A DNA stretch of 64,000 bases, from the NCBI RefSeq assembly GCF_037042905.1, contig NC_087252.1, positions 5,272,001 through 5,336,000 on the forward strand, written 5' to 3'. The stretch comes from Lytechinus pictus. Taxonomy: Eukaryota. How positions within the stretch are numbered: the stretch's first letter is position 1; the number at the start of each line of letters is the position of its first letter. A model generated the notes under the pieces. The model did not search any database. It was given only the letters and a program-made list of their open reading frames with translations, and was not told the DNA's origin. The position numbers and the translations under genes are program-made. Of the stretch, positions 6,881 to 36,911 are shown one piece after another.

Positions 6881-7427
6881 GACTGAATGAATTTAACCCA
6901 AGAAGAGGAATATATGCCAAGGTCATGAAGCATTTTCAAAATTTTACAAGAAATAGTTGAATATTTAGGGGGAGTGGGGCTTCAGTCCCCACTTTTTCCA
7001 AAAACCATGTACAAAAACGTAAAAATTAGCATATGATTATGAATTATTGCATGGTCAGCCCCCCCACGTTGTAAGCCGTTCCGCGGCCCCTGTACCTTAC
7101 ATCTTTTGATGAATGTACTATATATGTTTTCTGACATTCGCTCTCTTTAAATTTTCCAGAAATTGTGCTACTGTAAAGTCGGCTGCTTCAAAATGTTTTC
7201 GTCATTACGTCATTGATTTAGGTAATTTACAGTAGGCTCCATTGGAGGCCTTGATAGGGGTTGTGTACTCCTAGCTACACTACATTTATCAGTCAGGCTA
7301 GGGTATCATCAGTTTTTTAAACAACACTCGCACGTCTCCTATGCCACCGTGCCATACATATTCTAGAATTATTTTATATGCTAGTACATGTAAAACAAAT
7401 CTTATCCTTATACCACTACAACCTCAA

Positions 7428-8040
7428 AGCCCTGTCACGTCGTTCTGTGCAAGCCTTGCGGGTGAGTTGCGGATAACTGTTTTCCAGCACGCAACCAAAT
7501 TTCTGCGGGTGAAAAAGCATTTTCACAAGGTCTGCGCGCGGGACGCGTGCAATTTACTGTCGTGTATTGCGTGTGCCCTTCGGGCGAAGCGGGATGATGG
7601 CGCGTGTAAGTTGCGGGCGACATTCGTGCCCCGCGTGTTATCTACTGCCAACCTGCGTCAAATCTGCGATTCACTTTAGTGAGAGTTGCGTGTGGATTGC
7701 CTTGTGATGTCGACTTGTTGATTGGCAGAGGTGCTGAACCAACGATCTTGGCCGCAACTCGCAGCTAACCAGTAGAAAGAAATTTGTCCTCAACATGCAC
7801 GCAAATTGCTCGTGCCTCGCCCGCAGAACTCACCAGCTACACCAATGTTGGCAGTATCATGGCTGTTTCTTGTCAGTATATTTGGCACGCAGAATGCCCG
7901 CACTGTCGCAGATTAACACGCATTTCCAGCGCATAGCCAGAGTTCCGCGGCAATCTGCGTGTGACTTGCGGGTCAGAACTGATGTTTTGCGCAAATCTGG
8001 AATAAGTTTTGAGCAAATTCAGAATTTGTCTGCGGGCAGA
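7428..8040. mobile_element. GC-rich fragment of a non-autonomous DNA transposon (possibly Harbinger-like)
   Basis: Dense TGCG/CGCA short motifs in both orientations (e.g. GAGTTGCGG vs CCGCAACTC); start AAGCCCTGTCAC; no credible ORF. Confidence 0.4.
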
Positions 8041-8715
8041 CATGGTATTCAGAAAATAACATCATATCTTACATCTTTCCTAATTTACTTTCATTTCCTT
8101 TCCTTTTCTTTCATCTTTTCTTTTTTATTCTCGGTTGTAGAACTTTTTGGGGCCAGTGAATCAGGGTACTAATGGATAATTCGTTTTTCATTCCTGATTT
8201 TCGTAGAGCAAAAACGGAAGTCAACCTCATAGATTGGTCTTTGAAAACACAAAAACGAAATCACAACGAGAAAAACCCCGTTGTGATTTCATTTTTGGAG
8301 ATCAAAAACAGAAGAATGACATCAGAAATACTTTTGGTCCTCTCTGATACCTCATTCTATACCTGTGTTTGTTATATATTAAAAACAAAATCAGAACACG
8401 CTTTCTACCCCCTGATTATGTTTGGAAAAACGCAGACAGCGAAAACGAAATCGGGTAGTTCGCTTTCCACTTCCTGCTCTCTGATTTCGTCTTTCGCACA
8501 GCCAACAGCCAACACACGTGCACGCAGTGCAGTGCATGCATGATACGACCACGTGCGACAAAAATTCACTTTAACATGGCTTTTTCCAGCGTTTTCGGAC
8601 CTTCGCAGACAGTGGCGTAGCTAGGATTTTTTTCCCGGGGGGGGGGGGGGGGGACTGGGGGGTCCTTGCTTTTTCAGGGGGGGGGGCACCGGCCATTTCT
8701 TGCGGTGTGTGTGTA

Positions 8716-10010
8716 ATAAAGTAATTTTTCAAGGGGCCCCCAGGGATATCCCGACGGCCTAGCCAGGGTAATCACGTATCCTAACTTGTAGAACTTGACT
8801 CGGGCAATCAGATAAACACTGACTTGACCCGGCGCATGCACATTTAGAGGGCTAAATTTAACAAAATTAAAGGGAATAAAGGGCTATTTATCGCATTTTT
8901 AAAATTAAAATAAAGTAATTTTTCAAGGGGCCACCAGGGATATCCCGACGGCCTAGCCAGGGTAACCACGTCTCCTAACTTGTAGAACTCGACTCGGGCA
9001 ACCAGGTAAACACTAGCTTGACCCGGTACATGCACATTTAGGGGGCTCAAATTAACAAAAGTAAAGGGAATAAAGGGCTATTTATCGCATTTTTTAAATT
9101 AAAATAAAGTATTTTTTCAAGGGGCCCCCAGGGATATCCCGACGGCCTAGCCAGGGTAACCACGTATCCTAACTTGAAGAACTTGACTCGGGCGATCATA
9201 TAAAAAATGACTTGACCCGGCGCATGCACATTTAGGGGGCTAAAATTAACAAAATTAAAGGGAATAAAGGGCTATTTATCGCATTTTTAAAATTAAAATA
9301 AAGTAAATTTTCAAGGGGCCCCCAGGGATATCCCGACGGCCTAGCCAGGGCAACCACGTACCCTAACTTGTAGAACTCGACTCGGGCAACCAGATAAACA
9401 CTGATTTGATCCGGCGCATGCACATTTAGGGGGCTCAAATTAACAAAATTAAAGGGAATAAAGGGCTATTTATCGCATTTTTAAAATTAAAATAAAGTAT
9501 TTTTTCAAGGGGCCCCGAGGGATATCCCGACGGCCTAGCCAGGGTAACCACGTATCCTAACTTGTAGAACTCGACTCGGGCAACCAGATAAACACTCGCA
9601 TGGCCCGGCGCATGCACATTTATGGGGCTTAAATTAACAAAATTAAAGGGAATAAAGGGCTATTTATTGCATTTTAAAAATTAAAATAAAGTATTTTTCA
9701 AGGGGCCCCCAGGGATATCCCGACGGCCTAGCCAGGGTAACCACGTATCCTAACTTGTAGAACTCGACTCTGGCAACCAGGTAAACACTAGCTTGACCCG
9801 GTGCATGCACATTTAGGGGGCTCAAATTAACAAAAGTAAAGGGAATAAAGGGATATTTATCGCATTTTTAAAATTAAAAGTATTTTTTCAAGGGGCCCCC
9901 AGGGATATCCCGACGGCCTAGCCAGGGTAACCACGTACCCTAACTTGGAGAACTCGACTCGGGCAACCAGATAAACACTAGCTTGACCCGGCGCATGCAC
10001 ATTTAGGGGG
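8716..10010 (+). repeat. Tandem array of ~194-bp units (~7 copies), left arm of the foldback
   Basis: The marker AAGGGGCC..GGGATATCCCGACGGCCTAGCCAGGG recurs at ~8731, 8925, 9119, 9313, 9507, 9700 and 9889. Confidence 0.95.
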
Positions 10011-11767
10011 CAACTGGTTAAAGCATCTCATGAGCAGATCTTATTCATATATTATACTCAGTCCTAAATCCTCCGCCAATAAAATAGTTCCGAAAGCTGA
10101 GTGACACCTGTATTTTTCTTTTATTTGCACAAAATATGTTCAATGGTTGCCCATTCTCTGTTTCTAGAATCAGTCTAATCATTATACATATTCTTTTTTG
10201 TAATCAACTTACAAATTAAAAAAATGAGAATGGGTTGGGTCGAATGAATATCTTCAGCCTTCTGTTGTAGATCGTCATCTCTTGGAGAAAAGATGGGGGC
10301 GTATATCGATAGAAAACGTATTGTCAAAATATAAAATATGAGTATAAAGCTCCTCAAATCTTCGAATAATTCTCATGAGACATTTTCTTTTGCACGTGTA
10401 GCCTTCAATTCAATTAATTAGCAACTTAATATAATATGTGATGTATGTACCCGCGATTTGATTAAAAAAAAAAATGGCCATCTGCAATGTTTAAAAATAT
10501 CACGAGGTTCTGGGGGCTCCGCCCCAGACCAGTGGCGCCACCGAATGGGGAGTCCCCAGTGAGTTGCCCCCCCCCGAAATTTGAAGAAACAAAATGTATA
10601 GTAAACGTTGTCATAATACTCCAAAAATGTTTTTTGTTCTTTAAATTTTAAAAATATTCTCATCCATTCACCGTTAGCATTTAGGTCCCAACAATTTTGG
10701 TCACTAACATAAATCTTTCAGGCCATTATATAAAATTAAAAATGTAGCTCGCGATACGCGCTCGCAGTTATTAATGATTATCTGTTCACATGGGGCTTAA
10801 AAATCAAATGTTATTAGAGTTTTCATTATTTGTTTTAGCGAGATACATATCCTGCGTATTCATAATTTCCATAGAGGATTTATTTTCAGCGAATTAGATA
10901 GCCATTCATTTTATAATTAAAAAAAAGCTTAGAACGGCCAGGTATCATCCCGGATATCAAAAATTTTCAGCTCACGCTTCGCGCTCGCATTATGCATTTG
11001 GTGAGATATCATCTTCATGACCCAATTAATGCAAACAGCTGATTCTTAACAGTTCCCTTTTTAAATCAGTAGGGACTGCATTTGCAATAAAATTAGCTCG
11101 CGCTTCTCGCTCGATTTTTTTTTTAAATGTGTGCCATCCCCCCGGCCCCAAAATGTTTGTTTGCCTCCTCCTAGGTTAAAAACCCTAGTACCGTCATTGC
11201 CCCGGATCCGAACCGCATAGCACTGCCCCCCCCCCAAAAAAAAAAAAAAAAAAAAAAAAGAAAAGTTCTACAACCGAGAAAAAAAAATGATAAAAGGAAA
11301 GAAAGAAAAGGAGAAGAAAGATATGTCATTTTCTGCATACCATGTCAAAATCAATCTCAAAATTGAAGGTGATTTTTATTCTCGCTCGCTTCGCTCGCTT
11401 GAGACTTATTATTAAGCAAATTTTTGCTGCGTGCGCCATGGTGTGCCCCCTCTATTTTGTTCTTATCTCGCATTGAGCTTCGCACTAATGCTCGGGGCAT
11501 AATCATAAAATAACCTGTTCATACAATGATATGACCCCTCCGTTCTCCCTTCTCTTTCTCTCCCTTTCCCCCTCCTTTTCTTTCCTATCTCTCCCTTTCG
11601 CTTCTCTCTCTTCTATTTTGTCTTCTCTCTTTCCTTGTTGTTTTTTACTCTACCCATCGGCAGCACTAAGGGATGGGGGGAAAAGTCAGGACCGTGGTTC
11701 CCCATGCTTGAAAAAGCCCGTATTCCTTTACTTTTGTTAATTTTAGCCCCCATAATGAGCATGCAAC

Positions 11768-13688
11768 CAGTTGCGTAACAGGCGGGGGGGGGGGGGGGGT
11801 GCAAGCTGCCCCCCTTCCCCCTGGCGGAGTTCACCGTGAAAATGTTAAGAAAAAAAAACCGGGAAAAGGAAAAAATAAGGGGAGAAAGAAAGAAAGGGAA
11901 AGGAGAAGGAAAGGAAAAAAGGTGAAAGGGGGAAAAGGGAGGGGAATAGAAAAGGGTAAGGGAAAATAAAACTAAGAAAAAAAAAGGGAAAACGGAAAGA
12001 ATTTGGAAAAAGGAAGGAAAGAAGTACATGTGAGGAAGAACAATTTTCCCAGATATACACATACATTAGCATGATTAGTAAGACAGGGAAATGAATTAAA
12101 GATGACAAAAAGGCAAACAAAAGCGGGAAATTAAGGTAGAATGGAATGAGGCAAAATCTAAATTGGAAAATAAAAAAAAAGGGACAAGATGGGCTGCTGA
12201 GGATTGAAGATAACGAGAGGGAAAAAAGATGGATGGTATATAGCATAATTTCGTATGAAAGTCTATTATAAACTTGCTAAATATCCAAAGCTACCGGGGG
12301 CTCTGTCCAAGAGTCAAGACCCCGTGCAGTGGAGGCTCTTAACCTGTAACCTTTAAAGGGTTCTATAATGGCCCCCTATATGGATCCTTCCGTTGAAGCA
12401 CTGGCGTACGGGGGGGGGGGGTTCCACAGCCAAGGGGAAATAAAAGAAAATGAAGGAGGCAGCGTAATGAGATGAATAAAATATTTTAAAAAATATATAA
12501 GACATGACATTTGCTATGATGTAAAAATCTATCACATAATTATAATTTTATTTCAAAATGCCATTTTTCTTCTGGCTCGCTTCGCTCGCTGGCGACTTTT
12601 TTTTAAAACAAATTTTCCCACATTTGCTATGGTGTGCCCCCTCAAAATATTTGGATGATTACGGTACACAACTACATTGATTGATTGATTGATTGATCGA
12701 CTAAATTTCCAAAGCGACTATCACATAATTAGAATTTAATTTCAAAATAATTTTAAAAGACAGGGAAATAAATTAAAGATGATAAAGGCAAACAAAAGCG
12801 AGTGAAGGTAGAATGGAATGAGGCAAAATCTAAATTGGAAAATAAAAAAAAGGGACAAGATATTACTACCGGGCTGCTGAGGATTGAAGATAACGAGCGG
12901 GAAAAAAAGATGGATGGTATATAGCATAATTTCGTATGAAAGTCTATTATAAACTTGCTAAATATCCAAAGCTACCGGGGGCTCTGTCCAAGAGTCAAGA
13001 CCCCGTGCAGTGGAGGCTCTTAACTTGTAACTTTTAAAGGGCTCTATAACGGGCCCCTATATGGACCCTTCCTGCATTAACCTTTGCGTTGAAGCACTGG
13101 CGTACGGGGGGGGGGGATTGGTTCCACAGCCAAGGGGAAATAAAAGAATATGAAGGAGGCAGCGAAATGAGATGAATGAAATAAAAAAAGACATGATATT
13201 TGCTGTGATGTAAAAGTCTATCACACAATTCAATTTTATTTCAAAAGGCCATTTTTCTTCTGGCTCGTTTCGCTCGCTGCCGACTTTTTACAAATTTTCC
13301 CACATTTGCTATGGTAGACCCCCTCAAAATATTTAGATGATTACGGTACACAACTGCAGCACTGAATTTATTTGTAGTGTGAAAGCTATATAAATATACA
13401 CGCAATTTGATTAAAATTAGTGGCCATCTGTAAGGTTTAAAATGGCTTTAATATCAAGAGGTTCCGGGGCTCTACCCCGGACCCCACTCATTTTTGCCAT
13501 TAAAATGTCAAAAATTTTGCTCGAACGCTCCGCTCGCTCGCATAAATATATATTTTTGTCCGATACTCCATAATATCGCCCCCTCAAAATTTTTGCCTTA
13601 TGACTCCATTGCCTGCTTTATGATGTGACCGGGAAATTCTTGGTTCTTGCCCCCCCCCCCCCAGCCACCGACCCCTGTTACGCCACTG
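11768..13688 (+). mobile_element. Non-autonomous hAT-type element with 8-bp TSD
   Basis: TIRs CAGTTGCGTAACAGG / CCTGTTACGCCACTG; CATGCAAC duplicated at 11760-11767 and 13689-13696; internal ~590-bp direct duplication (12081-12675 vs 12758-13357). Confidence 0.85.
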
Positions 13689-14395
13689 CATGCAACGGGT
13701 CAAGCTAATGTGTATCTGGTTGCCCGAGTGGAGTTCTACAAGTTAGGATACATGGTTACCCTGGCTAGGCCGTTGGAATATCCCTGGGGGCCCCTTGAAA
13801 AAAATACTTTATTTTAATTCTAAAAATGCGATAAATAGCCCTTTATTCCCTTTAATTTTGTTAATTTGAGCCCCCTAAATGTGCATGCGCCGGATCAAAT
13901 CAGTGTTTATCTAATTGCCCGAGTCGAGTTCTACAAGTTAGGGTACGTGGTTGCCCTGGCTAGGCCGTCGGGATATCCCTGGGGGCCCCTAAAAAAAATA
14001 CTTTATTTTAATCATCTAAAAATGCGATAAATATCCCTTTATTCCCTTTAATTTTGTTAATTTGAGCCCCCTAAATGTGCATGCGCCGGGTCAAGTCAGT
14101 TTTTATCTGATCGCCCGAGTCAAGTTCTACAAGTTAGGATACGTGGTTACCCTGGCTAGGCCGTCGGGATATCCCTGGGGGCCCTTGAAAATTTACTTTA
14201 TTTTAATTTTAAAAATGCGATAAATAGCCCTTTATTCCCTTTAATTTTGTTAATTTGAGCCCCCTTAATGTGCATGCACCGGGTCAAGTCAGTGTTTAAC
14301 TGGTTGCCCGTGTCGAGCTCTACAAGTTAGGGTACGTGGTTACCCTGGCTAGGCCGTCGGGATATCCCTGGGGCGCCCCTTGAAAAATTACTTTA
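13689..14395 (-). repeat. Inverted tandem array of the same ~194-bp unit (~4 copies), right arm of the foldback; a further partial unit lies at ~11710-11767
   Basis: GGCTAGGCCGT..ATATCCCTGGGG recurs with its G-run at ~13786, 13981, 14176 and 14370. Confidence 0.95.
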
Positions 14396-14824
14396 TTACA
14401 CACACACCGCCAAAAATGGCCGGTGCCCCCCCCCCCTGAAAAAGCAAGGACCCCCCATTGCTCCCCCGGGGGGGGGGGGGGGAATCCTAGCTACGCCACT
14501 GTCTGTGAAGATCCGAAAACGCTGGAAATTAAAAGCCATGTTAACGTGAATTTTTGTTGCACGTGGTCGTAACATAAAGCTATTACGTAATAGCTTCATG
14601 GTCGTATCATGCATGCACTGTACTGCGTGCCCGTGTGTATAACGTATTTCGATATGGCTGTTGGTTGTGCGAAAGACGAAATCAGAGAGCAGGAAGTGGA
14701 AAAGGAGGGCGCCCTTGATGTCAAGCTAAAGAGACACAGAAAGGAGAGCAGGAGAAAAAAATCCGTATTTTAGCCTGGAATACACATCTTCGGTCAACAA
14801 GGTACTGATTTGATATTAATTACG

Positions 14825-15733
14825 ATGTTTTCTCTGAAACGACTGAGATCTCCTTCTCCAGAGGATGAACCAAGAGGAGAAAACAGGATTTTTAAGACGA
14901 CAGTTCGTGAGAGAGGCGCCACACCCAGCTCTGATCCCAACACGGACATGGCAGAGGTACGTGATTCGAATCCAAACTCTACTGACCAACTCTTACGAGA
15001 AATTTTGAACAAAGTATCCGGCCTGGAAAATTTATATAAGAAAGTTGATATTATTTCTCAGAAAGTTATCAGCATTGAAAGGAAAGTAGAAGCATTGGAT
15101 ACAAGGATCATAGATTTAGAGCAGGGTTTTGAGTTCATTGAAACAGAAGTTATGGATTTGAAACGGCAAGTTGAAGAAATGAAGGAAATGAAAGCGGATG
15201 TGAAATATGCAAATGAGTTAAAGCGGAATGTTGTTGATCTCGTGAATAGGAGCAAGAGGAATAACGTCGTACTCCATGGAATTCCGGAGGGAGTCGAAGG
15301 TGACGCGCATGACTGCTCGCATTTCGTCAAGGAATTCTTCGATACGCATATGAATGTTTCCAACGTAGAGGTCGAAAGAGCACATAGAACGCCGGGTGGA
15401 AGATCTAGACAAAGAGATGCAACCATGGCAACAGCACGCCCCCGTCCCATTCACGTGAAGCTACTGAGATTCAACGACCGAGAAAAGATTCTGAAAAGGA
15501 GTGCTGCGCTGAAGGACGTCCGCATACAAGATAAGAAAATAGGAATTAGCGATGATGTACATCCGGAGACACGCGAGGAGCACAAAAAGCTGATGATAAG
15601 AGTGAAGAAGCTAAGAGAAGAAGGAAAGTTTGCGTTCATACCTAACTCCATTCCCAGAGTAATTAAGTACAAGGAAGGTGCTAAAGATAGTCCAGGACCG
15701 TTGAAAACACTCCGCGTGACAGACTTACAATAG
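14825..15733 (+). CDS. L1/Tx1-type ORF1 protein (coiled coil + RRM + CTD)
   Basis: A heptad-like region is followed by NRSKRNNVVLHGIPE, ERAHR and RPIHVKL, typical ORF1p motifs. First ATG at 14825; the frame is open. Confidence 0.88.
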   Translation: MFSLKRLRSPSPEDEPRGENRIFKTTVRERGATPSSDPNTDMAEVRDSNPNSTDQLLREILNKVSGLENLYKKVDIISQKVISIERKVEALDTRIIDLEQGFEFIETEVMDLKRQVEEMKEMKADVKYANELKRNVVDLVNRSKRNNVVLHGIPEGVEGDAHDCSHFVKEFFDTHMNVSNVEVERAHRTPGGRSRQRDATMATARPRPIHVKLLRFNDREKILKRSAALKDVRIQDKKIGISDDVHPETREEHKKLMIRVKKLREEGKFAFIPNSIPRVIKYKEGAKDSPGPLKTLRVTDLQ

Positions 15734-16285
15734 AATCATTCCAAAAGGTAAAATGTGTCAAAAAAATAATCGAGGAAACCAAATGGAGTGAGATAAATGT
15801 AAAGACAGATTATGATCATCATCGACACATCAACAGAATATTTTCATGACCAAGAAGACGGTTAATGTTTTTATGTTAATACTTATGATATTAGTATGGC
15901 TATTACATACCTTTTTAAAAAGAGAGAAAGTATAAATCCTCCTGCTCTCTTTTTTGGAGTAAAGATCAGTCCTCTATCTGAATGTTTTTAATTGTGAACA
16001 CTGTGTGTAATTACACCAGGATCACTATGTGTTTTGTCTCATTTGTATTTGTTGGTTATTTGCCTCGAGCCTATAAGTCTAGGCTAAAACCACGACTGAA
16101 CAGGCCACCTTATCTTATCTTGAATTATTATATATGTATTTTGTCATTGTTCAGGAGAAGTGGAAACCACTTTTGTATTTGTAGCTTGTTTATTATTTTA
16201 GTAATAACGTCGTGTTCTGTTTTTAAAGAAAGGATAAACTCCACAGGATTTGTTGGTTTTTATAATAAAAAGAAAAAACAGTTTT

Positions 16286-19200
16286 ATGAAGAGTAGTATA
16301 AAGATTGTTTCAATGAACTGCCGAGGTTTAGGCAATTCAGTGAAGAGAAGAGATGTTTTTGAAATATTGAAATTAAAGAATTATCATATATGCTGTTTAC
16401 AAGATACACATTTTAACACTGATAAAGAAGATGATATAAAAAGATTTTGGGGAAACAATTGTTTTTTTAGTAACAAAACATCAAACGCAAGAGGCGTAGT
16501 GATTTTATTTCGTGATGATGTACCAGTGAAAGTAATAAGAACTGAAAAATGTAATGATGGAAATTTTGTTGCTATAGATATGATGTTATATGATTACAGT
16601 ATTACTTTGATTTCACTGTATGGTCCTAACACGGATAATGTCGGCTTTTATGCACACATTGAGAACTTAATATTGGATTTCAACAACCCGTTTACAATCA
16701 TATGTGGTGACTGGAATTTGGTTCAGGATTTTGAAAAAGATACACACAATTATATCCGACTAAATAATCCCAAAGCGAAACAAAGGGTTGACGAGATGAA
16801 GATTAACTTAGAATTGATTGACCCATGGAGGGAATTGCATGGCAGTGATACAGTATTTACATGGCGTCAGCCTACACCTTACAAGGCTGCCAGATTAGAT
16901 TTCTTTTTGATATCAAAAGAATTAATATCAGTAATTGACAGTACAGAGGTAGTACCTGGTTACAGATCAGATCACTCATGGGTAAACCTAACATTATGTT
17001 TGAATCGTGACAAAATCGGTCCCGGTTATTGGAAATTTAACAACTCCTTATTGAAAGACGGTGATTATACATGTAGAATAAGACAGCTAATTGCAGAAAC
17101 TGTTGAAACTTATATTGTAAAACGTGACGGTGATATAAACTTCCCGCACGATAACTATGAGCATTGTAAATTTATGGTTAATGACCAATTATTTTTTGAC
17201 ACCTTATTAACTTTAATAAGGGGTGAGACGATTTCATATTCTGTGAATAAAAAGAAAAGAATGCGTGATTTAGAAAATGATTTAGAAAAAGAAATTGTAG
17301 CCCTAGAAATTGGTATGTTAAATGGACATGATACAAATAAATATATTGAGATGTTGGAAAACAAGAAAGTTCAGTTATATTTGATAAGAAAAGAAAAGAT
17401 AGATGGTCTAAAGATGAGATCAAAAGTCAAATGGATGGAATTTGGTGAAAAACCTTCAAAATACTTCTTAAATTTAGAAAAAAGGAATGCAGTGAACAAA
17501 CAAATAAATAGACTGATTGATAACGAAAATAAAACTATTTGTCTTCAGGAAAATCTTCAATCCGAGATTTTACGTTTTTATTCAGAATTGTATCGAAAGA
17601 ACGAGGTCATTGATATTGATTTGAACACCTCTTTAAATTATGCTGATGTACCCAAGTTAACAGACTGTTTATCTCAATCTTTGGAAGGCGAGCTTACTAT
17701 ACAGGAGATATATCAATCATTGTCAAATATGAAGAATTGTAAATCTCCCGGACTAGATGGGTATACAGTCGAGTTTTTCAAACATTTCTGGAAAGATATT
17801 AACTTTTTTTTGCTTAGATGCTTAAATTTTGCCTTTAAATCAGGTAGCATGTCACAGATTCAGAAACTTGGTGTGATATCTCTTATTCCAAAAAATAAAA
17901 AAGAAAGACTTTATCTTCGAAATTGGAGACCTATATCTTTATTGAATGTTACATACAAAATAGCTTCGGCATGTATCGCAAATAGGCTCAAAAAGGTGCT
18001 TCCTTTTTTAATACATGAGAACCAAAAAGGTTTCATGGAGGGCCGGTTTATTGGTGAAAATATTCGACTGTTATATGATTTGCTTTTGTATACAGATGTG
18101 AACGATATCCCCGGTTTATTGCTTTTAATCGATTTCGAAAAGGCTTTCGATTCGATTTCTCACAGCTTCATTATAAAAGTTTTTAAATACTTTAATTTTG
18201 GCCCATCGATTATACAATGGTTTAATGTCTTCTATGAAAATATTCAATCTTGTATTGTGGTAAATGGACACCTCACTCCGAGATTTAGAATCGAAAGAGG
18301 TTGTCGCCAGGGGGACCCATTATCTCCATATATTTTCCTCTTGTGTGCAGAGATTCTTGGAATTTTATTTAGAAATACAAGGTGTATTAATGGAATAAGG
18401 ATATCTGAACAAAATTTGAAATTGATTCAGTATGCGGATGATACTTTACTCACGTTAAACGGTACCGCTTCGGAATTGAATATCGCATTAAATATTTTAG
18501 ATGAATATGCTGCAATATCTGGATTAAAAATAAATATTCATAAGACACGAGCGATTTGGATAGGGCTAAATAAAAACAAAAAAAGACAAGATACTTATTG
18601 ATCGTAATTTAACATGGGTATTTGATGAATTCTTTAGATATCTAGGTGTTGATTTTTGTACGGATTTGCAGAAGATGGTACAATATAATTACAACGAAAA
18701 AATTATAGAAATAAAGAGTCAAATGACATCATGGTTAAAAAGATATCTAACTGTGTTAGGAAGAGTAACTGTGGTTAAATCCTTGTTGGTTTCTAAACTT
18801 AATTACCTCATTATGTCTCTTCCGAATCCTAGTGACGAAGTTTTAAAGGATTTAAATTCATTATTTTACAAATTCATATGGGAGGAAAAACCGGACAAAG
18901 TTTGTAGGATTCAAATGTCCCAAACATATTTAAACGGTGGGGTTAAAATGATAGACATATATTCACACTGTCAATCATTAAAGATTTCTTGGATTAGGAG
19001 AATTGTAAACGGATCAATTGATAGTTACATTCTAAGCTTTCTTACGTTATCCTTGCCAAGACTACAAGATGTTCTTTTCTATATGACATATATGGGTAGT
19101 CACTACTTTCGAGAATTATCAAAACAGACCTATAACTCTTTCTGGAGTGAAATGTTTTTTGCTTATAGTAATTTCTTAACTATCTATTATAATAATCATG

Positions 19201-20096
19201 TCAATATACCTTCACATCCTTTATGGAATAATAACATAAAAATAGGCAATTTGCCAATATATATGAAGAAATGGAGTGAAAGGGGTATACGTTTCATTAA
19301 TGATATTTTGGATGAAGGAGGGCATTTTTTATCTTTCAAAGATTTTCAGGATCTTTATGATGTCCAGTCAAATTTTCTTTTTTATCATTCACTGTGTGCT
19401 GCTATCAAGGAAGCCTACAAAAGGTCCACTTTCAATAGAATCCCCCAACCATTAATTCCAGATGTGCTATCATTTATTACTAAACATAAAAAAGGATGCT
19501 CGCATATTTATTCCATTCTATTGAAACGACGAAAAACAGAAAACAAAAGCTTTCTTAAATGGAAGTGCATATTTGATCTGAACGATAAAAGGTGGGAATC
19601 CTATTGCTCATTGGGTTTTCAGTGTACCATTGATGTAACATTGCGTTGGTTTCAATATAAGGTTGTGCAACGTATATTATTTACAAATGATTTGCTTTTC
19701 AAATTGAAATTAGTTTCAGTAAACAAATGCACCTTCTGCCGAAAAGAAATCGAAACGGTTTTGCATCTATACTCGGAGTGCAGGCATGTTAATCACATTT
19801 GGAAAGAGTTAGAGGTTTGGATTAGGACCAAAACCAGTGAGACTCTACACTTTTCAGATGAAAATAAAATATTCGGATTTATTGGAAAAAACAATTGTGC
19901 ACTTAATTGTATTTTTATTATAGTAAGAAAAACTGTATATGATTGTAAAATAAACAATACAATTCCTCTTTTCAGTATCATTAAATCCTCAATAATCAAT
20001 TATTATCAAAATGAGAAATACATTGCCCAACTAAATTTCAAACAACGCAGATTTGACAAAAGATGGTTTCGGTTGAAAAATCTTTTTACTGTTTGA
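16286..20096 (+). pseudogene. L1/Tx1 ORF2 (APE + RT + C-terminal CCHC) with a single +1 frameshift in the A-run 18578-18584
   Basis: Motifs MNCRGL, LQDTH, GDWN, RLDFFL, SDH; WRPISLLN, DFEKAFD, GCRQGDPLSP, YADD; CTFC..HLYSEC. Removing one A joins the two ORFs through KDKILIDRNLTWVFDEFFRYLGVDF. Confidence 0.92.
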
Positions 20097-20554
20097 CTTC
20101 AACATGTAAAATTATTTTGTTATACTTGTCAGTTCATTGTTTATATCAGTGATTGTATTATTCATTGTGCTCTGTACCTATTGATTTTTGATTGCCAATA
20201 AAATCCCTGTGGAGGGGAAAAAGATTAAAAAAAAAAAAAAAGGAAGTGGAAAGCGAACTACCCGATTTCGTTTTCGCTGTCTGCGTTTTTCCAAACAGAA
20301 TCAGGGGGTAGAAAGCGTGTTCTGATTTTGTTTTTAATATATAACAAACACAGTAATAGAATGAGGTATCAGAGAGGACCAAAAGTATTTCTGATTTCAT
20401 TCTTCTGTTTTTGATCTCCAAAAATGAAATCACAACGGGGTTTTTCTCGTTGTGATTTCGTTTTTGTGTTTTCAAAGACCAATCCATGAGGTTGACTTCC
20501 GTTTTTGCTCTACGAAAATCAGGAATGAAAAACGAATTATCCATTAGTACCCTG

Positions 20555-21050
20555 ATTTTCAACCTCCCTAATCACTCTGTCAAAGATATCAAAGTCTGCA
20601 TCTTCGGCGGAGGATTGTTTACTATTATCTCTCTGTGCAATGTGCAGCGTGCGCGGTCTAAGCTAGACACTCTTTTTATTACGAAATATCTTTATTGTTA
20701 CGAAACCTAAATCATACTCTTTTATTATTACGTAACTTACGTCATTAATGGTCTATTACCCCAAAACGCGCACTATACATTCATAACAGCATTTGCGCAC
20801 CTAGCAGTGGTTACCCTTGTCCCGCTGAGATCGCGCACGCTTTAATAAAAAACAACTGTCATTCAAACTTGTCACAATTCACGAATCTTCCCTGAAGAAG
20901 GTAGATGTCTACCGAAAATTTGGAGAGTGAATAAAAGAACTAAATTGTTGGCACTGCAAAAACTGCATTACTCGTGAATTTGTTTCGCATTTCTGATGTC
21001 TTATTATTATTATTGCCAATACGTGGAAAACCAAGATGCTTATACTTTAT
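20555..21050 (+). mobile_element. Penelope-like element remnant (GIY-YIG C-terminal fragment + pseudo-LTR)
   Basis: 20558-20602 translates as FNLPNHSVKDIKVCI, resembling the HFNLPxHSxxD motif of Penelope endonucleases. A hammerhead-like core at 20892-20921 and AATAAA at ~20930 follow. Confidence 0.65.
20887..20926 (+). ncRNA. Minimal type I hammerhead ribozyme motif (Penelope-associated)
   Basis: TTCC-CTGAAGA-A-GGTAGA(TG)TCTACC-GAAA-ATTT-GGAG: CUGANGA box, stem II hairpin, GAAA box, palindromic AATT stem III, and short stem I (TTCC/GGAG). Confidence 0.65.
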
Positions 21051-22098
21051 ATATATTTATTAACGAATATAACACATGTAATGGTCTCTCTAAAATTACT
21101 TAGTACTACTCCACATTATTTAGCAAGAAGACAAATGCTTCACAGATCATGGGCCTACCCCTAACTAACATGGCTGACAAGTCAGCAAAAGAGCATGATT
21201 TTCAAAGATGCTCTTTCCCAGGAGTCTGATCTGGAGAGAAACTTATCATAATCCCCTTCAAATTGCCTCCCATGGATGGATGAGAAGTATAAGTTAGGGG
21301 GGCACTCCTGTATCTGTTCATAGCACATTAGTTATTATCAATGAATATTTATCCGAACTTGTTCCATTTGGATTCAAATCGGGGCCACCATCCTCTAAGG
21401 TAAGCATTTGCCACTTATCGTGTATCGTATGCATTTAAATAACCTTGTATCATTCCAAATAAAAGGAAAACTTAACAAGCAGTTGAGACTTAAGAGGGGG
21501 AAATCAGTCTGGAAGATGAATGAGAGAAAAAAAAATGAAGTGGAGTTAGGATGATGCAAAATGTCAAATTTGTCTAATCGGATACTTGCCTAAAAATGTA
21601 AATTTGTGTTGTAAAAGTCATTTTCTTAGGTTGCTCCAACATGATTGATCTCAAACCGGAAATTATGTTTAATCCATTATTTGCTGTGTATAACTCTGTC
21701 CTTGATTACAGTTTATGTTTTCAAAGAAAACTAAAAAAACAAAACAAAAACAACAAAACACTGTGCAGTTTTATTTCATGTAGGAAAATGGGTGATATGA
21801 TACAAAGCTTATGTTACATTTTTTTAAATTAAAGTCTTGTTACATTGCCTGACATCATTTGACCTACCATTAACATTGCTGCACTTTAGGTGATCTTGTC
21901 ATGTTATCTGGTAACTTTTTAAAATTGCATTTTACTTGCTGCTCTATTATTTTTATTTTGAATGTTTGATTCAACATGAGATTGCATGCGATATAATCAA
22001 ATATCATATCCCGAATAGAGAGTATGATGTGCCAAGTAATAACATGTATTTTTCGTACTTGTAATTATCACTTCCTTGTTCATGTGAAAAACGAATAC

Positions 22099-25000
22099 TA
22101 GACGGGTCAATATATGGTTTGACCCGGAACAAATTGCAACAAATGATTTTTCAACGGTATTTTGTACTATTTGACCTCAGGAATAACATACTAAAAATCT
22201 ACCAAAATCCGCATCCGGGAAAGTGGTTATTTTCAAGATGGCGTCCAAGATGGCCGTCATTCACTAAAAATGGATATAACTCACTCATTATCCACCCTAG
22301 AATCCTATTTGGATTCATATTCCATGATCCAATGGGTAAAATAATTTATTTATACAAGTTAGAGTGAATACTAGCACTCCAGGGTACCAGGAAAATCCAA
22401 GATGGCGCCCAAAATGGTTGCCGTAGTCTAAAAAAATCCACAATTCATCTATTACTTACTTAAGTGTCTTTAATTTGGTTTCCATTCGATTGTTTTAATG
22501 ATGAAGTAGTACGTCGGGACAAGTTACAAGGGCAGCCAGTGGTCTGGTGTGCCGGAAAATACAAGATGGCTTCCAAAAATTGAGTTTAAAATGGCTGTTA
22601 ATCCTTAAAATGGACATAGCTCATATCACATCCACCTGAGAGATAAGATTTTGATGTCTAGACCATGGTTCCAATGGTCAAATAATACATTGTGACAAGT
22701 TACAAGGACAGTCAGTGGTCCGGTATGTTAAAAAATCCAAGATGGCTTCCAAACATGGAGTAAAAAGGGCTGTTGCTACTTAAAAAAAACCCAACATAGT
22801 TTGTTAAATATCCGGGAATATGATTTTTTGTGCCTATACCATGGTTAAATGGGTCAAATAATAAATTTGGATAGGTTACAAGGACGTTTGGTGGTCAAGT
22901 ATGTCCAAAAGTCCACGGTGGCTTAAAAAATAGTATCAATTAGCCGCAATGGTATTTAAAAATGGACATACATGTAGTTATGTTTTATTCGTCAAGGGCA
23001 TATGATTTTGTTGCCTATATCATGGTTTCAAAAGGCAGAAAATTAGTTACAAGGACAGTCAGTGGTCCAGTATGTCGAAAATCTAAGAAAGCTTCCAAAA
23101 ATCGGAGTCTAAAATGACTGCTGTTACTTTAAAAATGGACATAGGTCCTTTAAAATCAACCTAGGAGATATGATTTCGGTGTCCACACTATGGTTTCATG
23201 GTTAAAATAATACGTTTGGACTGGTTACATTGATATGCAGTTGTCCAGTTTGCCTAAAACACAAGAGGGTTTTTAAAAAAGGAATCTAAAACGACTCATA
23301 TCATTCAATAGTGGTCAGAGTTCTACAATATTCATCTGCAAGAAATAATGTTGGTGTCCAAATTGTGGTATGAAGGGTCAAATAATACATTCGGAAAAGT
23401 AACAAGGATGGTTAGTACCCCATTTTGTCAAAGAATCCATGATGGATTCTAAAATTTCATCAAAATGGGTGCTGTTACCAACTCATGTAACAATATGATA
23501 ACTTGTCCCCATGCATTTAAGTGTAGGCACCAAGATTATTTCTAACAGGTAGATATTATTCTTATGTAACGGTAGTCACTTTAGAACCCATTCTTAAGCC
23601 AACTTGGATTTCAAGGCAAAATGGATTGCTGCATATCATGGTAACCAGTCCCAAAGTATTGTTTGGCCCTTGAAACCCTAGTGTAGACACCAAAATAATA
23701 TCCCCAAGGTGTATTGATAATGTTCTACATCCACTTTTAAGTAACAGCAGTCTTTAAGACCCCCCTTTTTAAAGCCATCTTTGATTTTTAGACATACCTG
23801 ACACCTGACTGTCCTTTGAACTTATCCCAATGTATTGCTTGACCCTGTAAACTCTAGTATAGACAGCAAAATCATACCTCCAAGGTGTATTTATAATAAA
23901 CTATGCATACTTTTAAACAGCAACAGTAAATTTACACCCCATTTTTTGAAGTAATCTTGGATTTGTTAACATACAGACAACTGACTGGTCTTGTAACTTA
24001 CCCTAGTGTATTACTTGACCCTTTTAAACCATGCTTTTAACACCAAACTCATATTCCCCAGACAGATGTTAAACAAACTATGTCCTTATGTAAGTAACAT
24101 CAGACATTTTCTTACTCCATTTTTGGAAGCCATCTTGTAATTTTGGACATACTAAGCCACTGACTGCCATTGTCTTGTCCTAATTTATTATTTGACCCTT
24201 GAAACCATAGTTTAGACACCGAAATCATATCTCACAGGCTGATTTAAAACGAGCTATGCCACTTTTAAGTATCAACCGCCATTTTAGAATCAAGTTTTGG
24301 AAGCCAACTTAGGTTTTTTGACCGACCAGGCCACTGACTGTCCTTGTAACTTGCCCTAATGTATTAATTGATCCTTGAAACTAGTGGTTTAGACACCAAA
24401 GTCACCTTTCCAGACCGATATGAAATGAGCTTTGTCCGTTTTAAGTATCAGCAGCATATTTTTAAGACCAATTTTTGGACACCATCTTCGATTTTTGGAC
24501 ATACCAGACCATTGACTGTCCTTGTAACTTATCCTAATATATTTTTTGACCCTTGAAACCAGTGGTTTAGACATCAAAATCACATATCCCAGTCCAAAAT
24601 GAAATGAGCTATGTCCGCTTTAAGTATAAGCAGCCATTTCAGAATCAATTTTTAGAATCCATCGAGGATTTTTGCACATACCAGCCCACTGACTTTCCTT
24701 GTAACTTGTCCCAATGTATTATTTGACCCATTGAACCATGGTATAGAAAAAAAAATCATATTTCTGGATATAAATCAAACTATGTCGGGTTTTTTAAGTA
24801 GCAACAGCAGTTTTCGACTCCATTTTTTGGAAGCCATCTTGGATTTTTGAACATACTGGACCACTGACTGTCCTTGTAACTTGTCCCAATGTCTTATTTG
24901 ACCATTGAAATCGTGGTCTAGACACCAAAATCATTATGTCCCAGGCGGATATGAAATGAACTATGTCCATTTTAATTATCAACAGCCATTTTAAACTCCG

Positions 25001-25465
25001 TTTTTTGGAAGCAATCTTGGATTTTTGGACACACCAGACCACTGGCTGTCCTTGTAACTTGTTTCAATGTATTATTTCACTCTTAAAACCATTGAATGAA
25101 AAACAAATTTAGATGAATTGTGGATTTTCAGCCTACGGCAGCCATTTTGGGCGCCATCTTGGATTTGCCTGGTACACTGGAGGGCTTATAATTCTTTCTA
25201 GCCTAAATCAACTTTTGTACCCCAGACCATGGAATATAGAACGAAATAGGATTCTAGGGTGGATAATGTGTCAGTTGTATCAATTTTCAGTGAATGGCGG
25301 CTATCTTGGACGCCATCTTGAAAATAACCACTTTCCCGGATGCGGATTTTGGTAGATTTTTAGTATGTTATTCCTGAGGTCAAATAGTACAAAATACCGT
25401 TGAAAAATCATTTGTTGCAATTTGTTCCGGGTAAGGCTATTTTTGGTCGTATATTGACCCGTCTA
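22099..25465. mobile_element. Foldback-type non-autonomous DNA transposon, Academ-like termini, built of opposed ~177-bp tandem repeats
   Basis: Ends TAGACGGGTCAATATA / TATATTGACCCGTCTA; TAC duplicated at 22096-22098 and 25466-25468; near-perfect IR 22122-22256 vs ~25297-25431. Units AGTTACAAGGACAGTCAGTGG (left, ~6) and CCACTGACTGTCCTTGTAACT (right, ~9). Empty site at ~51666-51688. Confidence 0.85.
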
Positions 25466-27162: not shown

Positions 27163-27338
27163 TGTTATGTACTCCTAATTAATCTACAGTAATTAGTAAT
27201 TAAGGCACATAAATAAGCACACGTCTGATACTCTTGGTATATGATTCCAAAGCAAGTTTATTCCGCATTGCGCCTGCGCAGCTACAATTGTGAGTCATGG
27301 TATGACATCATGTATGACATCATTATCAATATATAACA
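27163..27338 (-). repeat. 3' LTR (176 bp)
   Basis: Reads identical to 31763-31938. Confidence 0.97.
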
Positions 27339-27719: not shown

Positions 27720-30700
27720 TTATGAAAATCCAAAATAGTTTGGTTTTCTCCGCTCTCGTCTAGGATAATGCTTTATACCGTCATCGTGTTCGACTTCAGG
27801 ATTGTCTTCACGATCGGCGCGAATGTCTACATGATCTTCATTGACATCGCGATCATCATTCTCGTTATCACGGATGATAACGTCATCTTCGTGTGTCGGG
27901 ACGGTGTCGTCGTTCGAGGTTGATGAAGTCGAGATTCGACTTCGCAGTTGGTCAACATGACGTTTCCATTTCAGCGTGGTGTTATTGGCATTGACATTTA
28001 CGACATAGGATACCGGACCGTTACGTTCGACTACTTTTCCGGGTAGCCATTGGTTACCTCGCCCGTAATTTCTCACAAGGACTTCTTCTCCTATCTTAAA
28101 TTCGCGAAGTATGCGAGAAGTGTGAGCGGTCTGTGAGAATTGCTTCTTCTCAACGGTTGCGTTCACATCAGGCAGAACAGAAGATATGCGAGTACGCAAC
28201 TTTCGGTTCATGAGCAATTCTGCCGGTGACTGATTTGTGGTAGCTTGTGGAGTTGTACGGTAACTCAACAAGAACCTTGATAATCTCGTCTGAAGGGGTC
28301 CACTCATTTTTCTGAGGGCTCCTTTCACAGTTTGCACTGCTCTTTCCGCGAGACCATTAGTGGCTGGGTGATATGGTGCACCTCGAATGTGATTGATTGC
28401 GTTCATTTTCATGAACATAGCGAATTCCTCACTCGTGAAACAGGGCCCATTATCCGAAACCAGCGTTTGAGGAAGACCTTGTGCCGAAAAGACTTCCCTC
28501 AATTTGTCGATTGTCGCTTCACTAGTCGATTTATTCGTAATATGAACATCTATCCACTTTGAATACGCATCTACTATTACTAGTAACATTTTCCCTTCTA
28601 CTGGACCTGCGTAATCGACATGAATTCGCGACCACGGTTTACTTGGATATTCCCACTGATGGGGTGGAGCTTTCGACGGTTGTCGCTGGTGTGATTGACA
28701 TTTTTCGCAAGATTTAACTTTACGCTCCAAATCTTTGTCAATCTGTGGCCACCATACGCAACTTCTCGCCATTGCCTTCATACGCACTATCCCCGGATGT
28801 GCATCATGCAATTCTTCCATCATTGCTTCTCGACATTTCGGTGGAAGCACCGCGCGAGCTCCCCACAATATTACTCCCTCATGGACACTCAATTCATCTT
28901 TTCTATTCAAATACGGACCGAATGCCTTATCTTGTAATTCATCTGCTGTAGGCCATCCGTGTAAGATGAAGTTACGGACCCGCGACAAGATCGGATCTTT
29001 GTCGGTAAGAGAACGGACGCGCGAGGGCGTTATCGGTGTCCTATCTAACGTATCCATGAGAAGTATGATATCTCCCGGGATCGGAGGATCCGGAATGGTT
29101 GATTCTAGCGGCAATCTACTGAGTGCATCAGCATTTGAATTTTTCTCTCCCGCTTTATACTTTATTTCATATTCGTATGCCGCAAGTGTAATCGCCCACC
29201 GTTGGACGCGCGGAGAAGCCATCTGTGGAATGGCTTTCCTCTCTCCAAAGAGACCAAGTAGCGGCTTATGGTCCGTGATTATTTCGAATTTACGGCCATA
29301 CAGATATTGGTGAAACCGTTTTACCCCAAATACAATCGCTAGACCTTCCTTGTCTAATTGCGAATATCTGCGTTCCGCAACATTCAGTGTTCGCGACGCG
29401 AAACCGATGGGTTTTTCGGTCCCATCCGAAAATCTATGTGCGAGTACGGCTCCGACACCGTACGGACTAGCGTCGCAAGCTAGTATCAGTTTCTCTTCCG
29501 GATTGTAGTGGGCTAGCACTCGAGTTGAATTAAGCAACTTTTTGGCTCTTACGAAAGCCTGTTTTTGCTCATTACCCCACTGCCATCTTGCGTCTTTCCT
29601 CAACAACCGATGAAGAGGTTCTAGATTTGATGCAAGGTCGGGTAGAAATTTACCATAATAATTTAGCAAGCCCAGGAACGAGCGGAGTTCCTTTACGCTT
29701 TTTGGTTCCGGCGCATTTGTAATTGCTTGCACCTTGTCCCCCGTGGGACGAAGACCTTTGGCAGTGATTGTGTGTCCGAGGTAATCAACCTCGTCCTTGA
29801 GAAACACACATTTTTCTTTCTTTAGTCTTAGTCCAGCTTTCAGAAGAACATCCAGGACTGCTCTTAGGTTCTTCATGTGGGCATCTGTTGACTCTCCTGT
29901 GATGAGAAGATCATCTAGGTAGACAGCCACACCTGGTATACCGGCCAGCAATGACTCCATCGTCCGCTGAAACACAGAGGGCGCAGTTGAAACTCCAAAA
30001 GGCAGTCTCTTGTATCGAAATAACCCTCTATGCGTGTTGATGGTGACGAACTCCCTGGATTTCTCAGACAGGACTAGCTGTTGATAGGCATGAGACAGAT
30101 CCAGTTTTGTGAATTTCTTTCCATTTGCAAGCCTGGCAAATAGCTCTTCTACTCTCGGGATCGGATAAGTATCCGATCGAGCTGCTGTATTAATCGTGGT
30201 TTTATAATCCCCACAAATTCGAATGGATCCATCTCCTTTGACAACTGGGACCACTGGAGCTGCCCAGTTTGAATATTGAACTGGTTCAATTATGTCATCT
30301 GCTAGAAGGCGATCCAGCTCTTGATCCAGACGACTTCGAAGCGAAAATGGAACTGGACGGGCCTTCAAAAACTTAGGTGATGCATCGGGGTCAATATCCA
30401 GATCTACTTCTACACCTTTCAACTTTCCAAGTTCTCGTGTGAACAGTCCCGCGTAGTCTAAAAACACTCTGTCTACTGCGTCATTGACCCTGACCAAGTT
30501 TATCTCCCTCCAGTCCAACTTTATTTCGTGCAGCCAATCTCGTCCCATGAGATTCGGCCCTCTGCCTCTCGCAACTATCAAAGGCAAGCGTTCCTCCTTG
30601 TTGCCCTTGGATACGGCGACTTCACATTCTCCGATAATGTCGATTAAATGTTCGGTGTATGTACGAAGCCGCGTTTTTGGTTCGCTCAGCTTAGGCCTCT

Positions 30701-31694: not shown

Positions 31695-31762
31695 CCTCAG
31701 GTACTCGAACTTTCCCAAAGTGAAGAACAAACACAAAAGTTAATCCTCGTCGCCAGATTTGT

Positions 31763-36851: not shown

Positions 36852-36911
36852 TGTCAAATTTTTGGGCGGCCAATTTTGCCCCCCCTGTGAAAAATCCTAG
36901 GTACGCCACTG
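36648..36911. mobile_element. 264-bp hAT-type MITE with 8-bp TSD GTGGGGAG
   Basis: Ends CACTAGCGTACCTA / TAGGTACGCCACTG; GTGGGGAG at 36640-36647 and 36912-36919; two internal poly(T)-GCTTG subrepeats. Confidence 0.8.

What the first reader, a model, noticed from the sequence alone, without database searches (positions are those of the whole stretch)
8162..20554. 12.4-kb foldback element whose inverted arms carry 194-bp satellite arrays of unequal copy number
Seen: after removing the two nested insertions, the element is about 5 kb. It has a ~550-bp unique outer inverted domain (rich in AAAACGAAA-type motifs), inner opposed arrays of a 194-bp unit (~7 left, ~4 plus a partial right), and a ~1.7 kb non-coding spacer. 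Termini are CAGGG..CCCTG with AT on both sides. Each arm also embeds an hAT-like end (CAGTGGCGTAGCTAGG at 8610, CCTAGCTACGCCACTG ending 14481), so it looks like a composite of two nested terminal systems. Known: modular long IRs with tandem repeats occur in Drosophila FB and sea-urchin TU elements, where the tandem repeats form the outer domain; here they are the inner domain. Inference: this may be an unclassified foldback family that carries and amplifies a nucleosome-length satellite.
Basis: partly seen in the sequence, partly recalled or inferred. Interest (0 to 1): 0.72.

Follow-up and report, generated by a model that had tools for sequence, protein, structure and literature searches.

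The report
Composite foldback repeat in sea urchin
This is a real, gene-less, hairpin-shaped piece of jumping DNA in a sea urchin, built from the ends of two different transposons plus a short tandem repeat; the design is already known from fruit flies, and this copy looks rearranged rather than freshly inserted.

Summary
The mirror structure is real. Arms run 8159-10011 and 11711-20557, net 4.9 kb once a LINE (12-bp TSD) and an hAT-like MITE (8-bp TSD) are removed. Each arm is an outer domain of about 450 bp, an hAT-like end, then a 194-bp array (6.7 units left, about 4 right). The inner hAT-like ends have inverted flanks, not a TSD, and the two arrays share ordered unit variants, so both arms derive from one copying event. 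The 'AT TSD' is doubtful. The left flank is a common repeat cut at 8156-8158 and the right flank is a Penelope ORF cut exactly at 20558, so the flanks were probably never one target site. Contigs from four runs show that the outer end, the hAT-like end and the 194-bp unit are each multi-copy. In the three runs recorded as DNA the unit is far deeper than the outer arm. No listed contig shows the whole composite elsewhere. Repeats inside a unique outer domain are already described (Tetris, Galileo). Verdict: a new example of a known foldback design, probably a recombinant copy. That this family amplifies the satellite was not shown.

The parts
8039..8158 (.). Left flank: piece of a common MITE-like repeat, broken off at the tip of the arm
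   Evidence: 85% to 11261-11320 (reverse), also hits near 37950 and 39140. The two copies aligned go on into a motif that is missing here.
8159..8609 (+). Left arm, outer non-tandem domain with repeated AAAACGAAAT-type motifs (candidate transposase-binding sites, inferred)
8610..8714 (+). Left arm, hAT-like end and G-rich linker
   Evidence: Motif at 8610. 19 of 19 identical to 14483-14501, and 85.7% over 35 bp to an unrelated MITE end at 36879-36911.
8715..10011 (+). Left array, 6.7 units of 194 bp
10012..11710 (.). Middle domain: non-coding patchwork of common repeats
   Evidence: Many hits elsewhere in the window. Longest ATG ORF in left arm plus middle is 123 aa. No Rfam family above E 0.47.
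10530..11199 (+). Older hAT-like MITE inside the middle domain, degenerate ends, 8-bp flanks matching at 6 of 8
   Evidence: one search printed the right end one base off; the count is read
11711..11767 (-). Right array, remainder of the fourth unit beyond the MITE
11768..13688 (+). Nested hAT-like MITE with perfect 8-bp TSD (11760-11767 and 13689-13696) and an internal ~680-bp duplication
   Evidence: relative at 36938-39631 (68-71%)
13689..14397 (-). Right array, 3.6 units
14398..14501 (-). Right arm, hAT-like end and linker
14502..14702 (-). Right arm, inner part of the outer domain (55 bp longer than the left)
14573..14600 (.). 28-bp CAT..ATG palindrome between 7-bp near-duplicates (6 of 7); footprint-like insert
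14703..20240 (+). Full-length young L1/Tx1-type LINE with 12-bp TSD (14691-14702 and 20241-20252); ORF2 frame break near 18570-18601
   Evidence: 7 differences in 3421 nt to a contig of run X14
20241..20557 (-). Right arm, outermost 317 bp (includes the LINE TSD copy)
20558..20614 (+). Right flank: 57-bp piece of a Penelope-type RT + GIY-YIG ORF, cut exactly at the arm's tip
   Evidence: 19 of 19 aa to P0001 residues 547-565. A contig of run X10 enters at 20558 with the upstream codons of that ORF.

Best explanation
A non-autonomous composite foldback made by arm extension, lying at a rearranged site. (1) An abundant TIR-type DNA element supplied the outer domain (multi-copy: shown; superfamily: unknown). 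(2) An hAT-type MITE carrying a 194-bp array came to lie inside it, about 450 bp from one end (inferred). (3) One inverted copying event, by break repair or conversion between the close inverted ends, put outer end + hAT end + array on both sides, as in Galileo's TIR1-F1-F1-TIR2 copies. Common origin of the arms is shown; the mechanism is inferred. (4) The arrays gained or lost whole units by slippage or unequal exchange, giving 6.7 and about 4 (inferred). (5) A footprint-like insert, an hAT-like MITE and a young LINE then entered the right arm (shown by TSDs). (6) The two flanks come from different target sites, through recombination between two copies or a deletion next to an end, so no TSD survives and AAT..ATT is most simply the tip of the arm (inferred). 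The composite is a passenger of the satellite rather than its main vehicle.
For: Inner hAT-like ends have inverted flanks: 7 of 8 and 18 of 20 inverted matches, against 3 of 8 and 6 of 20 direct. Units are no more alike within an arm than between arms (left-left 8.0%, left-right 8.7%, right-right 10.4%), and neighbours L3-L4 pair in order with R2-R3 at 5.2% and 4.1%. No direct repeat of 3-12 bp at any of 6 candidate boundaries; only the 2-bp AT. Left flank repeat stops at 8156-8158 and its continuation is not at the right. Right flank starts at residue 547 of a Penelope ORF, and a contig of X10 carries residues 537-546 up to exactly 20558. The outer end is a real, multi-copy boundary: 2 contigs of X14 leave at 20557, and depth at 20466 is 403, 7175, 4823 and 16 against LINE 5' bins of about 19-28, 170-230, 410-450 and 0-2. 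One contig of X5 joins 14701 to 20266 without the LINE. One 617-nt contig of X10 lies only with its last 217 nt on the outer domain. Precedent: 12 of 170 Galileo copies are chimeric with non-matching flanks (PMC3573991).
Against: No whole genome was held, so copy number and flanks of the composite were not counted. A-AT..AT-T fits the ISL2EU target exactly, and the one new flank seen also begins with ATT. Penelope copies are often 5'-truncated (own knowledge) and this piece is only 57 bp, so it may have arrived later. In X14, the run with the longest near-identical pieces, the outer end (403) is deeper than the hAT linker (223) and the unit bin is only about twice the arm bins. Summed contig depth is not a copy number, and only 24 of 605 loose ends were shown. 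The outer 317 bp differ less between arms (5 of 317) than the inner parts (12 of 225; Fisher p 0.02), which a single copying event does not explain without later conversion.
Confidence: 0.5

Rival explanations
1. A clean insertion of a mobile composite family that is cut and pasted by an ISL2EU/PHIS-type transposase into A|AT|T with an AT duplication, or by a Spy-type one with no duplication. It would carry its satellite arms to new sites.
For: Flanks read A-AT and AT-T, the published ISL2EU target (PMC4482050). Two contigs of X14 leave after ATT. The outermost 317 bp are 98.4% identical, as in a recently moved unit.
Against: ISL2EU TIRs are 6-259 bp and usually start GG; this one starts CAGGG. 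The site is GAA|TTT, not the Spy AAA|TTT. The target AATT would have to be a 4-bp filler exactly between two unrelated cut repeats, which I put at about 1-2% by chance (own estimate; AATT occurs at 0.010 per bp). The Penelope ORF has no AATT at that point. One of the two X14 contigs may be this locus's own left arm. No transposase here.
Confidence: 0.22
2. A one-off local inverted duplication, for example by alternative transposition of the hAT end or a replication template switch. It copied the hAT end, its array and the neighbouring piece of another element; the whole never moved as a unit.
For: No TSD. Both arrays break off on the inner side with no second end. The middle looks like ordinary repeat-rich DNA. 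Composite insertions of this kind are reported for maize Ac/Ds (search listing only).
Against: The duplication stops at a point that is also an end elsewhere (X14 contigs leave at 20557); an arbitrary breakpoint need not do so. The outer part is more alike between arms than the inner part.
Confidence: 0.18
3. The inner 8610-14501 is its own hAT-ended foldback that inserted at the centre of a 0.9-kb palindromic MITE.
For: Inner ends are 19 of 19 identical and correctly oriented. The linker has many variants in organism A (joints at 14427-14443 to 14483), so it belongs to a varied family.
Against: No 8-bp TSD (3 of 8 direct), although the nested hAT-like MITE has a perfect one. It would need a duplication-free insertion at the exact tip of a perfect palindrome.
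Confidence: 0.06
4. Assembly artefact.
For: Long inverted and tandem repeats are hard to assemble; no contig spans the stretch.
Against: The arms differ by substitutions, indels and TSD-bound insertions. An X14 contig covers 14499-14695 with 2 other letters and 8 gaps, close to the right-arm version rather than the left, which is 55 bp shorter.
Confidence: 0.04

Closest known systems
Tetris foldback transposon of Drosophila virilis (PMC4079207; passages and section 17 read)
   Same: Long TIRs with a unique outer flanking domain (up to 866 bp), a variable number of about 220-bp tandem repeats further in, a non-coding middle, no ORF, and the repeat also present as satellite.
   Different: Tetris has 8-10 bp TSDs and an inner domain, and its repeat shares 37 bp with its own flanking domain. 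Here there is no such TSD, the unit has no hit to the outer domain, and an hAT-like end sits between outer domain and array.
Galileo extended-TIR and chimeric copies, Drosophila mojavensis (PMC3573991; passages read)
   Same: TIR extension by recruiting internal sequence in inverted orientation, tandem repeats inside the TIR, and chimeric copies with non-matching flanks.
   Different: Galileo is P-superfamily with a 7-bp TSD and a known transposase, and recruits its own internal sequence; here the recruited piece is the end of another family.
ISL2EU and Spy groups of the PHIS superfamily (PMC4482050; parts 1-2 of 4 read, supplements searched)
   Same: Flanks fit A|AT|T.
   Different: TIR starts CAGGG, not GG; arms are far longer than 259 bp; no transposase; a clean target is doubtful. 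The supplement search showed a Harbinger row for S. purpuratus and no sea-urchin ISL2EU row among the places shown.
TU elements of Strongylocentrotus purpuratus (Liebermann et al. 1983; paper not seen, only cited in PMC4079207; features recalled)
   Same: Sea-urchin element with long modular inverted arms.
   Different: As recalled, TU has short repeats in the outer domain and an 8-bp TSD; no sequence comparison was possible.
Tandem-repeat-carrying MITEs such as DTC84 of the clam Donax trunculus (PMC3879986; abstract read)
   Same: A MITE cassette holding a short array with ordered unit variants, a model for the hAT end + 194-bp module.
   Different: DTC84 has one central array and an AA duplication.

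Membership tests
Foldback-type elements (structural class) | Long composite inverted arms with several domains and tandem repeats | tested here: met
   definition from PMC3169594 passages
Foldback-type elements (structural class) | Variable repeat number between arms, non-coding middle | tested here: met
   6.7 vs about 4 units; longest ATG ORF 123 aa
Foldback-type elements (structural class) | Dispersed copies of the whole structure | tested here: inconclusive
   Modules are multi-copy; the whole composite was not seen elsewhere in the rows shown; no genome held
Mutator-type foldbacks (FB, Tetris, Tm1) | 8-10 bp TSD | tested here: not met
   At most 4 matches at k = 8-10 for 6 boundaries; uninformative if the copy is recombinant
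ISL2EU (PHIS) | AT duplication within A|AT|T | tested here: inconclusive
   Letters fit, but the flanks are unrelated cut repeats
ISL2EU (PHIS) | TIR 6-259 bp, usually starting GG | tested here: not met
   Starts CAGGG; arms over 1 kb
ISL2EU (PHIS) | Autonomous partner with DDE/THAP transposase and YqaJ protein | not testable with these tools
   No ORF in this copy; no genome to search
Spy (PHIS) | Insertion between AAA and TTT without duplication | tested here: not met
   GAA on the left, TTT on the right
hAT (inner unit 8610-14501) | Short TIR of the type seen on the window's 8-bp-TSD MITEs | tested here: met
   the label hAT for this end type is from own knowledge
hAT (inner unit 8610-14501) | 8-bp TSD | tested here: not met
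   3 of 8 direct, 7 of 8 inverted
Sola1 | 4-bp AWWT duplication | tested here: not met
   At most 2 of 4 at any boundary; definition from PMC3845634 passages
Any family already in Repbase or Dfam | Consensus match | not testable with these tools

The most novel reading that the evidence does not exclude
A mobile foldback family with two working terminal systems. A PHIS-type transposase would move the whole 4.9-kb unit into A|AT|T. Arm extension would have turned a one-ended hAT fragment into a new two-ended, symmetric hAT unit (ends 19 of 19 identical) that an hAT transposase could lift out with its satellite arrays. That would be a route by which one transposon builds a new satellite-carrying element of another superfamily.
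Probability: 0.12. Interest if true: 0.6.

Novelty: new member of a known kind. Interest (0 to 1): 0.3.

Why it matters
As it stands it is one more case of foldback arms holding satellite units, in a genome where earlier notes list several with cleaner TSDs. Its specific value is that the arm's modules can be traced to different families and that the two arrays keep unit order, which shows arm extension capturing the end of a foreign element. If the novel reading held, it would link foldback structure to the PHIS superfamily and show how symmetric hAT-ended satellite carriers are born. If the recombinant reading holds, the locus marks a possible deletion or rearrangement breakpoint.

Tried and rejected
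Whole-genome copy search: no genome held. Earlier notes near this place, by the sequence of the outer domain, by the hAT end + array, and in relatives: nothing. Exact patterns in metagenome contigs for the outer end and the unit: 0 hits. Viral contigs: 2 hits to an 18-mer, rejected as chance because the match stops at 22 bp in 46% GC coding-like DNA. Rfam over 7300-21500: 3 matches, all E 0.47-0.65 and far under gathering scores. Origin of the 194-bp unit from the outer domain or the hAT linker: no hit at E up to 1. The start of the new X14 flank is not in the window. A Helitron reading (A|TC..CTRR|T fits the letters) was dropped: it follows from the inverted ends, and I saw no hairpin near the end (by eye; Helitron features recalled). 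Literature searches listed no paper on this element or unit; the library lacks most subscription papers, including the TU papers.
Full report
Setting. The window is 36% GC animal DNA full of repeats. Earlier notes on the same genome call it a sea urchin (unchecked). The one protein record that matches the right flank is named Lytechinus pictus (only 19 aa, so the genus is likely, not proven). No whole genome was held.

The observation. The outer inverted match is 8159-8475 against 20241-20557, 312 of 317 identical with no gap. It continues as 8464-9422 against 14702-13687 (85.7% with gaps). A LINE at 14703-20240 splits the right arm. It has a 12-bp TSD, an ORF1 with a weak L1 RBD-like hit (E 0.035), and an ORF2 with endonuclease, RT and zinc-binding domains. 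An hAT-like MITE at 11768-13688 with a perfect 8-bp TSD splits the fourth unit of the right array. Without these the element is 4914 bp. The left array has 6.7 units; the right has 3.6 plus about 57 bp beyond the MITE. The middle is not a unique spacer. It has many hits to other repeats in the window and holds another degenerate hAT-like MITE at 10530-11199.

How the arms relate. The inner hAT-like ends are 19 of 19 identical, but their flanks are inverted copies (18 of 20) and not direct ones (6 of 20; 3 of 8 at the TSD positions). So the inner unit did not insert here as an hAT element; its two ends are two copies of one junction. The 11 units compared (7 left, 4 right; the last of each partial) differ by 8.0% within the left arm, 10.4% within the right and 8.7% between arms. 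L4-R3 (4.1%) and L3-R2 (5.2%) are ordered cross-arm neighbours, L2-L6 (2.6%) is a within-arm pair, and L1-L3 ties L3-R2 at 5.2%. The arrays therefore descend from one multi-unit array and were not grown separately from a monomer. One result fits less well: the outer 317 bp differ at 5 sites, against 12 of 225 in the inner unique part and hAT end (p 0.02). That needs later conversion of the tips or constraint on them.

The termini. Across 6 candidate boundaries and lengths 2-12, the only full direct repeat is the 2-bp AT at CAGGG..CCCTG. The letters A-AT..AT-T match the ISL2EU target A|AT|T, but ISL2EU TIRs are 6-259 bp and usually start GG (PMC4482050). The same letters can be read as the tip of the arm. 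The flanks argue for the latter. On the left, 8039-8158 is a piece of a common repeat. The two other copies aligned run on into a shared motif, while this one breaks off at 8156-8158, and the continuation is not found on the right. On the right, 20558-20614 encodes residues 547-565 of P0001, 19 of 19 identical. P0001 carries an RT domain and a GIY-YIG hit below the curated cut-off (E 0.0019), the Penelope architecture (own knowledge). One contig of run X10 enters at exactly 20558, and its loose end reads as residues 537-546 of that protein (read by eye). So two unrelated repeats are each cut at the arm tips. A clean insertion would need a 4-bp AATT filler exactly between them; I put that at about 1-2% by chance (own estimate). 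A recombinant copy or a deletion beside an end explains it directly, and 12 of 170 Galileo copies are of that kind (PMC3573991). The caveat is that a 5'-truncated Penelope piece could have arrived later.

Other copies. Seventeen runs hold part of 14200-22500; 4 were laid on 14200-21400, all as contigs. X14 and X10 match the LINE almost exactly (7 differences in 3421 nt; 0-5 in six pieces of 155-213 nt). X2 and X5 differ by 3-5%, so organism A is a more distant relative. Summed depths, which the tool says are not copy numbers, in the order X14, X2, X5, X10: unit bin 240, 272681, 685304, 244; bin 14441-14681 99, 5019, 8470, 1.4; bin 20225-20465 122, 2094, 5878, 7.3; hAT linker at 14426 223, 22182, 31491, 0; outer domain at 20466 403, 7175, 4823, 16; LINE 5' bins about 19-28, 170-230, 410-450, 0-2. 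All three modules are repeated. In X2, X5 and X10 the unit is tens to over a hundred times deeper than the arm bins; in X14, whose library type is not on record, only about twice. The linker exceeds the outer end in X2 and X5 but not in X14 or X10. One X5 contig joins 14701 to 20266 without the LINE. Two X14 contigs leave at 20557 after ATT; the consensus shown is a new flank, and the second contig could be this locus's own left arm (11 of 30 letters shared by eye, close to the reported agreement of 0.67). One X10 contig of 617 nt lies on the outer domain only with its last 217 nt, and X10 has little depth over the inner part, which hints that the outer end also occurs with other interiors; joints at repeats were dropped for that run, so this is weak. 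No listed row joins outer domain, hAT end and array at another locus. Only 24 of 605 loose ends, 15 of 34 joints and 32 of 5565 pieces were shown, so absence is not established.

Mechanism. Most likely (0.5): an abundant TIR element took in the end of an hAT-type MITE carrying a 194-bp array. One inverted copying event extended both arms over it, as proposed for Galileo. Units were then gained or lost, three later insertions hit the right arm, and the copy now sits between flanks from different sites. Shown: common origin of the arms, nested TSDs, multi-copy modules, cut flanks. Inferred: the order of the first steps, the repair mechanism, the recombination. Rivals: clean A|AT|T insertion of a mobile composite (0.22), one-off inverted duplication (0.18), separate inner foldback (0.06), artefact (0.04).

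Comparison. It works like Tetris and extended-TIR Galileo copies. It fails the 8-10 bp TSD of Mutator-type foldbacks and the GG ends of ISL2EU, so I do not file it under either. Foldback is a structural class with several transposase types. Earlier notes list several foldback-plus-satellite elements in this genome, three with 9-bp TSDs (unchecked). What I saw of each paper: PMC4482050, parts 1-2 of 4 and a term search of 3 supplementary files (first places only); PMC4079207, passages and section 17; PMC3573991, PMC3169594 and PMC3845634, passages; PMC3879986, abstract; the maize papers, search listing only; the TU paper, not seen. Seven searches listed no paper on this element. Repbase and Dfam could not be checked, so a named consensus may exist.

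Verdict. Real structure, known design, family status and TSD unproven. Interest 0.3. The boldest reading left open is a two-system element in which arm extension has made a new symmetric hAT unit carrying satellite (probability 0.12, interest 0.6).

Noticed in passing
   Followed up: partly
window 20860-20950: Hammerhead-like core (CUGAAGA, a short hairpin, GAAA) downstream of the Penelope piece. The hairpin is predicted but z is -0.71, and Rfam found nothing. The link to Penelope LTRs is recalled.
   Followed up: partly
window 14703-20240: Very young full-length L1/Tx1-type LINE inserted in the arm of a DNA element; some Tx1 elements target repeats (recalled), untested here. ORF2 has a frame break near 18570-18601 in an A-rich run.
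   Followed up: partly
window 14200-14440: The 194-bp unit bin is over a thousand times deeper than the LINE 5' end in both runs of organism A, but about ten times in X14: possibly a satellite that expanded in one lineage.
   Followed up: partly
window 8250-8297 and 20419-20466: Imperfect 48-bp palindrome inside the outer domain, about 90 bp from each tip.
   Followed up: no
window 36938-39631: Relative of the nested hAT-like MITE (68-71%), interrupted by a 152-192-bp tandem-repeat element at about 38050-39020.
   Followed up: no
window 27720-31739 (-): Open 1339-aa gag-pol-like frame of an LTR retrotransposon; the same 12-bp tandem unit at 27295 and 31895 may mark LTRs.
   Followed up: no
window 22200-25092: Diverged 176-bp array (8.2 units at 23641-25092), preceded by a further degenerate repeat with recurring CAAGATGGC motifs.
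   Followed up: no
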